Part shown: piece by piece, positions 12,284-14,764 of the stretch
Position numbering within the stretch: the first letter of the stretch is position 1
How the letters are laid out: every line of letters begins with the position of its first letter
Assembly (NCBI RefSeq): GCF_009914755.1
Contig: NC_060934.1
Origin: the human T2T-CHM13v2.0 reference genome, Homo sapiens
Reading direction: 5' to 3' (one strand)
DNA length: 64,000 nucleotides
Notes under the pieces: generated by a model
The model's input: the letters and a program-made list of their open reading frames with translations, nothing else
Database searches by the model: none
Told to the model about the DNA's origin: nothing
Translations under genes and position numbers: made by a program

Positions 12284-12650
12284 GGATAAATAAGGACATT
12301 ATTCTCCTATGAAGATTTGCTTCCCAAAACTCCTAGCTATATTTCCCTCCTAATGTCAAACCTAACAGTATTTACTGTTTGTCATTCATCTTGATACTAG
12401 GTTATATATTACCTTGCAGCACTATCTAACTTTGCCTTGTGGACATCTTAAAACTTCTCAGGTTATTATAACCTCTTTGAATTTTTATATCCCCAACAAT
12501 GCCCATCTTCATGGGTATTGCTCCTAACAGCCTCCCAGAAAAATAATTTTTGAATTAATATAACTAGAAATTGAATTGATTTAACCAGCTAGAAGAAGAA
12601 AGGAGGGGAGATCTCAGCAAAGAGAAGGAAAAGAGGAAAAGGACCCCAAA
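12284..12650 (+). repeat. Left arm of a ~365-bp long inverted repeat (partner 14399-14764)
   Basis: Hand alignment to the reverse complement of 14399-14764: about 17 mismatches and no indels over 12298-12613; perfect over 12446-12520. Confidence 0.97.
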
Positions 12651-12708
12651 GGATGGTCACAGAAGATAATCATTTGTCATTGCTTGATTTCCATTCCAAA
12701 AACCACTA

Positions 12709-12970
12709 GGCCAGGCGTGGTGGCTCATGGCTGTAATCACAGCACTTTGGGAGTCCAAGGTGGGTAAATCACTTGAGTTCAGGAGTTTGAGACCAGCCTG
12801 GAAACATGGTGAAACCCTGTCTCTATTAAAAATATAAAAAATTAGCCAAGCGTGGTGGCGCATGCCTGTAGTCCCAGGTACTCAGGAGGCTGAGGTGGAA
12901 GGATCACTTTATAGTGCAACTGCACTCCAGCCTGGGTGACGGAGCAAAACCCTATCTCAAAACAAACAAA
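12709..12970 (+). mobile_element. Alu with an internal right-arm deletion
   Basis: GGCCAGGCGTGGTGGCTCA...; right arm jumps from GGATCACTT to GTGCAACTGCACTCCAG. Confidence 0.92.
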
Positions 12971-12979
12971 ATAGTAGTA

Positions 12980-13762
12980 CAGAGATTTTCAATATTTTTG
13001 GTCTCCAGAGCACTTTACAGTCTTAAATATGATTGTATACCCACACAGATATTTTTTTCTTTTGTGATAGAGTTTCACTCAATCGCCCAGGCTGGAGTGC
13101 AGTGGTATGACCTTGGCTCACTGCAGCCTAGGCCTCCTGGGCTCAAGTGATCCCCCCATCTCAGCATCCTGGGTAGCTGGGACTACTGACACACCACCAC
13201 ACCCAACTAACTTTTGTATTTTTTGTAGAGACAGGTTTTTTCCATGTTGCCCAGGCTTGTCTCAAATTCCTCCTGAGGTCAAGCAGTCCCTCTGCCCTGG
13301 CCTCCCAAAGTGCTGGGATGACAGGCTGGAAACATAGCAACTGGCCCCCACACAGCTTTTAATGTGGGTTATAGCTATTGCTATTATAGGGGAAGTTACA
13401 AATTTTTATGATAATTATAAGATTTTTTAAATAACAAAACTATTACATGTCAACTTAATATTTTTCATTGAAAATATTTTTTCTCAAACAAATTTTGTGA
13501 TGAATGACATTATTTTATGCTTTGCAAATCACTTTAATATCTGGATTGATAGAAGACAGCTGGATACTCATATCTACTTTTCATTCTTTCTGTTGTGATA
13601 TCGTGTAGCTTCTGTAAAACTCTACCCTATACTTCTGAGAAAATATTAGTATAAATGGCAAATAATGTTTTATGGTTGTTATGAAAATCATTTTTACTCC
13701 ATGGACTCCTTTAAAATGTCTCAAGGACTCTAAGTGTTCCCTGGACCACACTTTGAGAACTG
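12980..13762. mobile_element. MER119-like hAT-Charlie element interrupted by an Alu
   Basis: TTTTTGGTCTCCAGAGCACTTTACAGTCTTAAA...ATAGAAGACAGCTGGATACTCATATCT...GGACCACACTTTGAGAAC. Confidence 0.7.
13052..13346 (-). mobile_element. AluJ-type
   Basis: Reverse-complement dimer; TSD CCCACACAG at 13040-13048 and 13347-13355. Confidence 0.92.
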
Positions 13763-14398
13763 ATTCAGTAGAGTGACATCTTGCTGCCATAATATTTTTC
13801 AGAATCAAGATAGTAAATTCTACACAGCTATCTCCATTCCTTTAGCTGAGGTAGGTGGAATTTCGCTCTGAGGCTCAAAAAATAGAATACTTTATCTTCA
13901 TATTTGCCAACCTGCATTGATTGCCCATTGATTTGTCCCAAAACTGAAAAAAAAAAAAGCATCAAGAGATTTGAGAGTTTTTAAAGATTCTTTCTCTTCC
14001 TTGCTTGCATGTTATAAATGATGGACAGACGCAGAGAAGGAGCCAAGTGTGGGGACACCATCATACAATGCTAAGTTTCTGAATCGAGGTGATTTCATTC
14101 TATTATTTTTTAAACTTAATGTTGGGAAACAATGGGAGGTGGATCTGAATGAAACCTTTGGTGAAAAAAAAAAGACATTGAAATAACTACTGGAATAAAT
14201 TACTGAGTCATTCTGGGTGTAAAATATACATTTTAATGCATATTTCAATTGCTGTAATTTGAAGATATGTATCATGCACTCAGTTTCAATTCATTACTAT
14301 TGGGAGCTCTGCATTATCAAGTCTAGGAGTGCTACAGTTCACATTAATTATTCAGAATAATGTTATTGACAGGCTTTTATTATAGGTTATATTTAATT

Positions 14399-14764
14399 TT
14401 GGGGGTCCATTTTCTGCATTCCTTCTCTTTACTAAAATCTCCCCTGTTTTCTTCTTCTAGCCAGTTAAATCAATTCAATTTCTAGTTAAATTAATTCAAA
14501 AATTATTTTTCTGGGAGGCTGTTAGGAACAATACCCATGAAGATGGGCATTGTTGGGGATATAAAAATTCAAAGAGGTTATAATAACCTGAGAAGTTTTA
14601 AGACGTCCACAAGGCAAAGCTAGATAGTGATGCAAGGTAATATATAATTTAGTACCAAAATGAATGACAAACAGTAAATGCTGTTAGGTTTGACATTAGG
14701 AGGGGAATATGGCTAGGAGTTTTGGGAAGCAAATCTACACAGAAGAATAATACCTTTATTATCC
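14399..14764 (-). repeat. Right arm of the long inverted repeat (partner 12284-12650)
   Basis: For example, ACAATACCCATGAAGATGGGCATTGTTGGGGATATAAAAATTCAAAGAGGTTATAATAACCTGAGAAGTTTTAAGA contains the exact reverse complement of 12446-12520. Confidence 0.97.

What the first reader, a model, noticed from the sequence alone, without database searches (positions are those of the whole stretch)
12284..14764. ~365-bp high-identity inverted repeat of non-recognisable sequence enclosing a 1.75-kb spacer (candidate invertible segment or long dsRNA stem)
Seen in the sequence: 12284-12650 is the reverse complement of 14399-14764. By hand alignment the core (12298-12613) has about 17 substitutions, 14 of them transitions, and no indels (~95%). 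There is a 75-bp perfect block (12446-12520), and identity falls towards both edges. The arms match no Alu, L1, LTR or MER consensus I recognise. Inference: a centre-high identity gradient is what arm-to-arm gene conversion or recurrent inversion by NAHR would leave. The spacer may therefore be a polymorphic or recurrent inversion. If transcribed, the arms would form a >300-bp non-Alu dsRNA stem, a potential substrate for ADAR or Dicer, or a structure that loops out spacer exons.
Basis: partly seen in the sequence, partly recalled or inferred. Interest (0 to 1): 0.8.

Follow-up and report, generated by a model that had tools for sequence, protein, structure and literature searches.

The report
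Small unique inverted duplication, PRKG1 intron
Two 367-base copies of otherwise unique sequence face each other 1.75 kb apart inside a PRKG1 intron; it is a real but ordinary old local duplication, probably partly evened out by copying between the two arms.

Summary
12284-12650 is the reverse complement of 14399-14764: 367 columns, 32 differences (23 transitions, 8 transversions, 1 indel), 91.3% identity, with a perfect 75-bp block. The arms are not an interspersed repeat. In the whole T2T-CHM13 genome each arm finds only itself and its partner, even at E<=10. The same tool finds about 70%-identical old repeats next door. Homology stops at the arm ends.

Divergence is uneven. The core 12313-12601 is 4.8% different and the edges 23% (scan statistic, 0 of 1000 permutations).

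My best reading is an old, non-transposon, local inverted micro-duplication. Arm-to-arm gene conversion has probably homogenised its centre. Error-prone replicative birth is the main rival.

On the PRKG1 sense strand the 2,481 nt fold with 339 arm-to-arm pairs, so an intronic hairpin open to ADAR is expected. No editing, duplex or small-RNA data could be examined.

The arms are shorter than any inverted repeat reported to drive NAHR inversions in one 45-inversion study (654 bp to 24.2 kb). The spacer holds no annotated exon. It is a new member of a known, abundant class, of low interest.

The parts
12284..12650 (.). Left arm of the inverted duplication (367 bp, 35% G+C, no CpG)
   Evidence: alignment; its only other genomic match is the right arm; composition.
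14399..14764 (.). Right arm, the reverse complement of the left arm (366 bp, 34% G+C, one CpG)
   Evidence: (2 of 2 genome matches are the two arms at E<=10).
12313..12601 (.). Low-divergence core of the left arm (partner 14448-14736): 14 differences in 289 columns (4.8%), against 18 in 78 (23%) for the two edges
   Evidence: Maximum chi-square scan, reached by 0 of 1000 permutations; Fisher p = 5e-6 for this chosen split.
12446..12585 (.). Nearly identical tract (partner 14464-14603): 2 differences in 140 columns, K2P 0.014. It includes the perfect 75-bp block 12446-12520. Candidate for the most recent conversion tract.
   Evidence: For the lowest count in any 140-column window, permutation p = 3.5e-4. 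Within the core, P(<=2 of 14) = 0.009, chosen post hoc.
12651..14398 (.). Spacer, 1748 bp. It has no homology to the flanks and no annotated exon. It holds two Alu-like elements and one older interspersed repeat; the rest is unique.
   Evidence: homology ends at the arms; 13771-14398 is unique in the genome; no frame above 92 aa; hub annotation (no exon in the window).
12704..12977 (+). Alu-like element in the spacer, inverted relative to the next one
   Evidence: The hub's masked stretch; direct and inverted matches to other Alu-like stretches; SRP-RNA-like Rfam hits below the gathering score.
13052..13345 (-). Second Alu-like element in the spacer, in the opposite orientation. In the minimum-free-energy fold it pairs with the first, which shortens the effective loop.
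   Evidence: 208 Alu-to-Alu pairs in the fold of 12284-14764.
13386..13764 (.). Old interspersed repeat fragment inside the spacer. It is not part of the duplication, but it shows that the genome search can find old repeats.
   Evidence: 314 first-look candidates, 40 scored. 39 matches elsewhere have E <= 5e-13, at 68-84% identity, within query positions 37-415; one further 25-base match has E 0.8.

Best explanation
This is a local inverted micro-duplication of 367 bp of otherwise unique intronic DNA. It is not a transposon and not a pair of interspersed repeats. One copy was made from the other, about 1.2-1.75 kb away and in the opposite orientation, tens of millions of years ago. Since then the two arms have exchanged sequence by intrachromosomal gene conversion. 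Conversion needs homology on both sides of a tract, so it reaches the middle more often than the ends. The edges have therefore drifted to about 23% difference while the core stays at about 5%. A 140-bp tract with 2 differences marks the latest event.

At the DNA level the structure is most likely neutral and fixed in one orientation. As part of the very long PRKG1 intron it is transcribed on the + strand. It should fold within the pre-mRNA into an imperfect hairpin of about 340 bp, with a nested inverted-Alu hairpin in its loop. That hairpin is an expected nuclear ADAR substrate and is discarded with the intron, so it is a by-product and not a device.

Shown here: the duplication, its uniqueness, the uneven divergence and the predicted fold. 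Inferred: conversion as the cause of the unevenness, the age, neutrality, and editing.
For: Two-copy status: each arm finds only itself and its partner in 3.1 Gb (2 of 2 candidates scored; 2 of 2 at E<=10; all 34 of 34 candidates scored, and none but the partner overlaps the arm). Positive controls for sensitivity: the same tool recovers 68-87%-identical old repeats at 13386-13764 and 11967-12150.

Discrete boundaries: blastn with word size 7 finds no further inverted homology in 9000-18000 apart from Alu pairs and a TA-rich stretch. Both flanks of the right arm are unique.

Neutral-looking differences: 23 transitions to 8 transversions. There is no excess of sense-strand G.U-compatible changes (8 of 23, binomial p = 0.21).

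Uneven divergence: core 4.8% against edges 23%, reached by 0 of 1000 permutations. K2P is 0.109 for 12284-12445, 0.014 for 12446-12585 and 0.237 for 12586-12650.

Fold: 339 arm-to-arm pairs, longest uninterrupted helix 77 bp, arm duplex -544.7 kcal/mol on the + strand; 208 Alu-to-Alu pairs in the loop.

Class is known and abundant: non-repetitive inverted duplicates occur at 0.82 per kb in human, though 80% have arms of 35 nt or less (PMC5398296, passages). A preprint lists 497,429 non-repetitive predicted dsRNAs, 4,597 of them edited (PMC11838218, Table 1 passage).
Against: No outgroup or second human genome could be examined. The age, which arm is the copy, fixation, and conversion itself are therefore all inferred from one pair of sequences. 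The unevenness has other possible causes: error-prone synthesis near the junctions at birth, a more mutable purine-rich inner edge (12586-12650), or purifying selection on the centre of both copies. The profile is not symmetric. The outer 162 bp have K2P 0.109 and the inner 65 bp 0.237, so a single simple edge effect is not enough. At 91% identity, mismatch-repair-dependent anti-recombination (established knowledge, not tested) should make present-day conversion inefficient. RepeatMasker/Dfam was not available, so a very old repeat (<65% identity) underlying the sequence cannot be excluded. Even so, two independent insertions of such a repeat would not be 91% alike.
Confidence: 0.55

Rival explanations
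1. The duplication is young and arose in one step by replicative template switching (fold-back, FoSTeS/MMBIR). The polymerase copied 367 bp from the opposite strand and was error-prone near the two junctions. The diverged edges therefore date from the birth, and the core divergence (about 5%) gives the true age. No gene conversion is needed.
For: The differences are concentrated within about 30 bp of the outer junction and about 50-65 bp of the inner junction. The boundaries are discrete, with no flanking homology and no transposon signature. Extra point mutations near the breakpoints of replicative rearrangements are known from the literature (recalled, not read here). Giner-Delgado et al. 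ascribe 18 of 45 human inversions to events with small indels that may reflect a single FoSTeS/MMBIR event (passage).
Against: Within the core the differences are still uneven: 2 of 14 fall in the 140-bp tract 12446-12585 (P = 0.009, post hoc). A single birth event plus clock-like decay does not predict this. The transition-rich spectrum (23:8) looks like ordinary germline decay. Neither point is decisive.
Confidence: 0.2
2. The inverted repeat is the scar of an inversion and not its cause. The spacer was inverted once, by staggered breaks at one breakpoint followed by fill-in and end joining. This automatically duplicates the sequence between the staggered nicks in inverted orientation at the two ends of the inverted segment.
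For: The anatomy fits: ancestrally unique sequence, duplicated in inverted orientation exactly at the two ends of a segment. In Drosophila, 17 of 29 fixed inversions carry such inverted duplications of non-repetitive sequence (Ranz et al. 2007, PMC1885836, abstract and passages).
Against: No internal evidence shows that the spacer was ever in the other orientation. The one polarisable old repeat in the spacer (13386-13764) lies away from the spacer's ends and is not split across a breakpoint. The model is documented mainly in flies. A 367-nt staggered break is long.
Confidence: 0.12
3. The structure is an active substrate of non-allelic homologous recombination, so the 1.75-kb spacer flips recurrently and is polymorphic in humans or differs among apes.
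For: Inverted arms above 90% identity are the hallmark of recurrent human inversions (PMC6748972). The recent-looking 140-bp tract shows, if it is due to exchange, that the arms still interact.
Against: At 367 bp the arms are about half the smallest repeat among the 24 NAHR inversions in that study (654 bp). The longest perfect match is 75 bp. A full-text search for PRKG1 + inversion + inverted repeats found 1 paper, which is unrelated. Supplementary inversion catalogues were not searched, and only one assembly is held.
Confidence: 0.05
4. The hairpin is functional. Selection keeps a long intronic dsRNA in PRKG1 pre-mRNA, for example as an ADAR-binding or editing platform, a source of small RNAs, or a modulator of splicing of the giant intron. 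Selection would then explain the conserved centre.
For: The stem is unusually long and stable for a non-repetitive one: 339 pairs and -545 kcal/mol, against medians of 75-144 bp and -45 to -185 kcal/mol for non-repetitive predicted dsRNAs (PMC11838218, Table 1). It lies in a neuronally and smooth-muscle expressed gene (expression recalled). The centre is far more alike than the edges.
Against: Sense-strand pairing is not favoured. Only 8 of 23 transitions keep a G.U pair on the + strand, against 15 on the - strand. The arms give no Rfam match (0 of 7 hits at E<=1 lie in the arms). There is no exon in the loop (hub annotation). In the dsRNAscan study conserved dsRNAs were short and weak (median 65 bp, -42 kcal/mol), unlike this one. 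A search for PRKG1 + A-to-I + dsRNA found 0 papers.
Confidence: 0.05
5. The arms are the long terminal inverted repeats of a single old DNA transposon, or two copies of one interspersed repeat inserted head to head.
For: Terminal inverted repeats around an internal segment are the general shape of DNA transposons. The spacer holds a fragment of an old interspersed repeat.
Against: A family would leave other copies, and none is found at E<=10 although the tool detects 68-87%-identical repeats nearby. I saw no direct repeat (target-site duplication) flanking 12284 and 14764 when reading. There is no open frame above 92 aa.
Confidence: 0.02

Closest known systems
Non-repetitive inverted duplicates found by Inverted Repeats Finder screens (Genome Biol Evol 2017, PMC5398296) and non-repetitive intramolecular dsRNAs predicted by dsRNAscan (bioRxiv 2025, PMC11838218)
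   Same: Two reverse-complementary arms of unique sequence lie within 10 kb, inside a gene, and are predicted to fold into a stable hairpin.
   Different: This one is in the upper tail for size. Its arms are 367 bp, where 80% of human inverted duplicates have arms of 35 nt or less and non-repetitive dsRNAs have median lengths of 75-144 bp. I could not see whether this locus is in their tables. The only supplement held for the preprint is a PDF with no PRKG1 or chr10 entry.
Inverted repeats that mediate recurrent human inversions by NAHR (HsInv set; PMC3961182, PMC6748972)
   Same: Inverted arms above 90% identity flank a short segment inside an intron. 8 of their 45 inversions are intronic.
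   Different: The arms are 367 bp against 654 bp to 24.2 kb. Breakpoints in that set sit in stretches of very high identity, for example 782 bp at 99.9%, whereas the longest perfect run here is 75 bp. No second orientation is known.
Large sex-chromosome palindromes kept alike by arm-to-arm gene conversion (search listings only: PMC8600007, PMC8327919, PMC8981503)
   Same: Inverted arms around a spacer, with identity patterns best explained by arm-to-arm conversion.
   Different: Those arms are kilobases to megabases long, more than 99% identical, and carry testis-expressed genes. This one is 367 bp, 91% identical, non-coding and autosomal.
Inverted Alu pairs (IRAlus), the main ADAR substrates in human introns and UTRs
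   Same: An intronic hairpin of about 300 bp with a kilobase loop, expected to be A-to-I edited. One such pair sits inside this spacer.
   Different: The arms here are unique sequence and more alike (91%) than the local Alu pair (66% by gapped blastn over 682 columns; 73-83% in its ungapped blocks). They arose by local duplication and not by two retrotranspositions.
Inverted duplications at inversion breakpoints from staggered breaks (Ranz et al. 2007, PMC1885836)
   Same: Ancestrally unique sequence is duplicated in inverted orientation at the two ends of a segment.
   Different: That model is documented for large fixed inversions in Drosophila. Here there is no evidence that the spacer was ever inverted.

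Membership tests
Interspersed repeat / DNA transposon with long terminal inverted repeats | Many dispersed copies of the arm sequence in the genome | tested here: not met
   Each arm matches only itself and its partner in 3.1 Gb (at E<=10; with 34 of 34 candidates scored). The tool does detect 68-87%-identical repeats at 13386-13764 and 11967-12150.
Interspersed repeat / DNA transposon with long terminal inverted repeats | Target-site duplication flanking the whole unit | tested here: inconclusive
   On reading the flanks I saw no direct repeat next to 12284 and 14764. An old duplication of 2-8 bp could have decayed.
Interspersed repeat / DNA transposon with long terminal inverted repeats | Transposase coding remnant, or a match to a curated family (Dfam/RepeatMasker) | not testable with these tools
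   No repeat library is held. The longest stop-to-stop frame in 12284-14764 is 92 aa.
Inverted Alu pair | Both arms are Alu elements | tested here: not met
   The SRP-RNA-like Rfam hits that mark Alu sequence lie only at 12710-13207 in the spacer. 0 of 7 hits lie in the arms. The arms have no high-copy matches.
NAHR inversion-mediating inverted repeat (HsInv type) | Arms above 90% identical | tested here: met
   91.3% over 367 columns.
NAHR inversion-mediating inverted repeat (HsInv type) | Arm length within the range seen to mediate inversions (654 bp to 24.2 kb in PMC6748972) | tested here: not met
   367 bp, with a longest perfect run of 75 bp; the range is from the passage.
NAHR inversion-mediating inverted repeat (HsInv type) | Both orientations of the spacer observed among haplotypes or species | not testable with these tools
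   Only T2T-CHM13 is held. No paper on an inversion at this locus was found.
Palindrome homogenised by arm-to-arm gene conversion | Arms closer to each other within a species than to their orthologues (concerted evolution) | not testable with these tools
   No other primate genome is held. The only indirect evidence is the uneven divergence within the single human pair.
Non-repetitive inverted duplicate / predicted intramolecular dsRNA | Two reverse-complementary arms of non-repeat sequence with a spacer of 10 kb or less | tested here: met
   arms, 1748-nt spacer; two copies only.
Non-repetitive inverted duplicate / predicted intramolecular dsRNA | Stable hairpin predicted on the transcribed strand | tested here: met
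   The fold of 12284-14764 on the + strand has MFE -1110.7 kcal/mol and 339 arm-to-arm pairs; the arm duplex is -544.7 kcal/mol. That the + strand is transcribed rests on the hub's PRKG1 annotation.
Non-repetitive inverted duplicate / predicted intramolecular dsRNA | A-to-I editing on both arms (the 'edited dsRNA' subclass) | not testable with these tools
   No RNA data are held. A search for PRKG1 + A-to-I + dsRNA found 0 papers.

The most novel reading that the evidence does not exclude
The duplication is much older than its 91% identity suggests. The inner edge has K2P 0.237, which would put the birth before or near the primate radiation. On this reading, repeated arm-to-arm gene conversion has kept the duplication alive for tens of millions of years because the long intronic PRKG1 hairpin is used, for example as an ADAR platform, a small-RNA source, or a fold that shortens the giant intron. 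Alternatively it is the smallest known recurrently flipping segment in a human gene.
Probability: 0.07. Interest if true: 0.55.

Novelty: new member of a known kind. Interest (0 to 1): 0.2.

Why it matters
As it stands it matters little. Small inverted duplicates of unique sequence are common in mammalian genomes, and this one has no exon, RNA family or coding frame attached. Its value is as a clean natural example: a 367-bp, two-copy, non-transposon inverted repeat with a sharp centre-to-edge divergence profile. Comparing it across primates could separate gene conversion from error-prone replicative birth, and it tests how short and how diverged inverted arms can be and still exchange sequence. 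It is also a candidate non-Alu ADAR substrate in a gene expressed in smooth muscle and neurons (expression recalled).

Tried and rejected
- Transposon or interspersed-repeat origin: rejected on copy number.
- Longer but interrupted homology beyond the arms: none found with blastn word size 7 over 9000-18000.
- Polarising which arm is the copy from interrupted old repeats: both flanks of the right arm are unique, and the left flank repeat at 11967-12150 is 130 bp away from the arm. No polarity was obtained.
- The first search of the right-hand side was swamped by a high-copy repeat at 15895-16089 (40 of 4394 candidates scored). It was repeated with cleaner queries.
- Structured RNA families: 7 Rfam hits at E<=1, all in the Alu-like part of the spacer and all below the gathering score, none in the arms.
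- Coding potential: the longest stop-to-stop frame is 92 aa.
- Selection for sense-strand pairing: 8 of 23 transitions are G.U-compatible on the + strand, p = 0.21, so no support.
- Literature: PRKG1 + inversion + inverted repeats gave 1 unrelated paper. PRKG1 + A-to-I + dsRNA gave 0 papers. The only supplement held for the dsRNAscan preprint is a PDF without PRKG1 or chr10, so its locus tables were not seen. Ten occurrences of 'staggered' in PMC3961182 concerned restriction enzymes and not breakpoints.
- A strand-composition (T/A, G/C skew) test of spacer orientation was considered but not run. About 1.1 kb of unique spacer gives a standard error as large as the expected intronic skew (my estimate).
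- Assembly artefact was considered and rejected by reasoning: a fold-back artefact would be near 100% identical, not 91% with a neutral-looking substitution spectrum.
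Full report
**1. Is it there?**

Yes. The repeat finder reports arms 12289-12650 and 14399-14760, 362 nt, 91% complementary, 1748 nt apart. It has 367 columns and 32 differences (23 transitions, 8 transversions, one 1-base indel at 12288), or 91.3% identity. 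The perfect 75-bp block 12446-12520 is confirmed.

That is 93.7% rather than about 95%. The match has E = 1.1e-143 against the whole genome. Of the 15 inverted pairs of 150 nt or more in the window, it is the only one outside the repeat-masked stretches listed by the hub.

**2. Is it a repeat family?**

No. The window's own assembly (3.1 Gb, 24 contigs) was searched in three ways:
- with the left arm (2 candidates, 2 scored);
- with the right arm at E<=10 (2 of 2);
- with the left arm plus 1.2 kb of flank at E<=10 (34 of 34 candidates scored).

The only matches to arm sequence are the two arms themselves. The tool warns that it skips very common words and scores only the best candidates, so I looked for positive controls. 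In the same calls it recovers an old interspersed repeat in the spacer at 13386-13764 (314 candidates, 40 scored, 39 clear matches elsewhere at 68-84% identity). It also recovers another old repeat at 11967-12150 (32 matches at 68-87%). Copies of the arm at about 70% identity or more would therefore have been seen.

A very old underlying repeat below that level cannot be excluded without Dfam. It would not change the conclusion, because independent insertions of such a repeat would not be 91% alike.

**3. Anatomy.**

The homology is discrete. A sensitive self-comparison of 9000-18000 finds no further inverted similarity beyond the arms, apart from Alu pairs and a TA-rich stretch at 16637-16830. 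The sequence on both sides of the right arm is unique in the genome (13771-14398 and 14765-15880).

The 1748-bp spacer holds two Alu-like elements in opposite orientation, 12704-12977 (+) and 13052-13345 (-). It also holds the old repeat fragment and about 630 bp of unique sequence. Before the Alu insertions the arms would have been about 1.2 kb apart.

The region has no frame longer than 92 aa. None of the 7 Rfam hits at E<=1 lies in the arms, and all are Alu/SRP-like and below the gathering score. By the hub's annotation the whole window is intronic to PRKG1 (+ strand) and holds no exon, so the stem cannot loop out exons.

**4. The identity gradient.**

It is real. The differences lie further from the centre than expected (permutation p = 5e-5). 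A maximum chi-square scan over all segments of 20 columns or more picks 12313-12601, with 14 differences in 289 columns (4.8%) against 18 in the remaining 78 (23%). None of 1000 permutations reached this value.

The profile is not a smooth symmetric gradient. K2P distance is 0.109 for the outer 162 bp, 0.014 for 12446-12585 (2 differences in 140 bp) and 0.237 for the inner 65 bp. Within the core, 2 of 14 differences fall in the 140-bp tract (P = 0.009, chosen post hoc).

With assumed neutral rates of 1.0-2.2e-9 per site per year (my assumption, from general knowledge), these distances give approximate ages:
- the central tract: about 3-7 My;
- the whole arm: about 21-47 My;
- everything outside the central tract: about 33-73 My.

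By hand, the inner edge alone would give about 54-118 My.

**5. What made it and what it does.**

[quoted passage not shown] The middle is therefore converted more often than the ends, the ends drift, and the convertible region shrinks. The 140-bp near-identical tract has the size of a mammalian conversion tract ('a few hundred base pairs', as summarised in PMC3961182). The 23:8 transition-to-transversion ratio looks like ordinary neutral decay.

The main rival is a single birth by replicative template switching with error-prone synthesis near the two junctions. That would also put the differences at the edges and would make the structure younger, with its age read from the core. A third possibility is compatible with either: the repeat is the scar of a one-off inversion made by staggered breaks, as shown for 17 of 29 Drosophila inversions (PMC1885836). 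These three cannot be separated from a single genome. Section 7 says what would separate them.

**6.

*Inversion.* The arms are above 90% identical but only 367 bp long, with a longest perfect run of 75 bp. The 24 NAHR inversions studied by Giner-Delgado et al. have repeats of 654 bp to 24.2 kb (PMC6748972), and refined breakpoints lie in stretches of very high identity (PMC3961182). Recurrent flipping is therefore unlikely, though not excluded. No paper linking PRKG1 to such an inversion was found, and supplementary catalogues were not searched.

*dsRNA.* On the PRKG1 sense strand the 2,481-nt segment folds with 339 arm-to-arm pairs (longest uninterrupted helix 77 bp; MFE -1110.7 kcal/mol; arm duplex -544.7 kcal/mol). 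The two spacer Alus form 208 pairs with each other, which shortens the loop. This is long and stable compared with catalogued non-repetitive predicted dsRNAs, whose medians are 75-144 bp and -45 to -185 kcal/mol (497,429 in all, 4,597 edited; PMC11838218 Table 1).

The arms are 1.75 kb apart in an intron of more than 64 kb, so the hairpin should form co-transcriptionally and persist until the intron is removed. Nuclear ADAR editing is the expected outcome (inference). The 15 transition differences that give A.C mismatches on the sense strand would be favoured sites (A.C preference recalled).

There is no sign that the stem itself is selected. Only 8 of 23 transitions keep a G.U pair on the sense strand, against 15 on the antisense strand (p = 0.21). 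Conserved dsRNAs in the dsRNAscan study are short and weak, unlike this one. A search for PRKG1 + A-to-I + dsRNA found no paper.

**7. Comparison, novelty and decisive tests.**

The structure belongs to the known and abundant class of non-repetitive inverted duplicates, which occur at 0.82 per kb in human, though 80% have arms of 35 nt or less (PMC5398296). It sits in the upper size tail of that class.

It works like a miniature of the conversion-maintained palindromes and like an inverted Alu pair at the RNA level. It fails the defining features of both: its arms are neither more than 99% identical and kilobases long, nor Alu. It also fails the length range of known NAHR-inversion repeats.

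I rate it a new member of a known kind and of low interest. The decisive tests are comparative: presence or absence and an arm tree across primates and mammals, and a single-copy outgroup for junctions and spacer orientation. Population-level spacer orientation in long-read assemblies and transcriptomic editing on both arms would also be decisive. None of these could be run here.

Noticed in passing
window 12704-12977 (+) and 13052-13345 (-): Two Alu-like elements in opposite orientation, only about 75 bp apart, sit inside the spacer. They are about 66% complementary by gapped blastn over 682 columns (73-83% in ungapped blocks) and form 208 pairs in the fold. This makes a nested inverted-Alu hairpin within the larger hairpin's loop.
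   Followed up: partly
window 13386-13764: Fragment of an old interspersed repeat: 314 first-look candidates in the genome, 40 scored, 39 clear matches elsewhere at 68-84% identity. Its end near 13745-13770 resembles, by my recall only, a hAT-Charlie-type terminal inverted repeat. The family name was not tested.
   Followed up: partly
window 11967-12150: Another old interspersed repeat, about 130 bp to the left of the left arm: 32 matches elsewhere at 68-87% identity. The family was not determined.
   Followed up: no
window 15895-16089 and 31707-31880: A young high-copy repeat: 4394 first-look candidates, of which the 40 scored gave 38 strong matches elsewhere at 90-98% identity plus two weaker partial ones. 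It has an inverted partner 15.6 kb away that is 90% complementary over 174 nt (pair I6). The family was not determined.
   Followed up: no
window 16637-16830: A TA-rich microsatellite-like stretch that is self-complementary, with a perfect 40-bp palindromic match at 16750-16789. This is ordinary (TA)n-type low complexity.
   Followed up: partly
window 3892-4145 and 23000-23253: An inverted pair, 254 nt and 88% complementary, 18.9 kb apart. Both arms lie in stretches that the hub lists as masked repeats (pair I2), so it is presumably an Alu pair.
   Followed up: no
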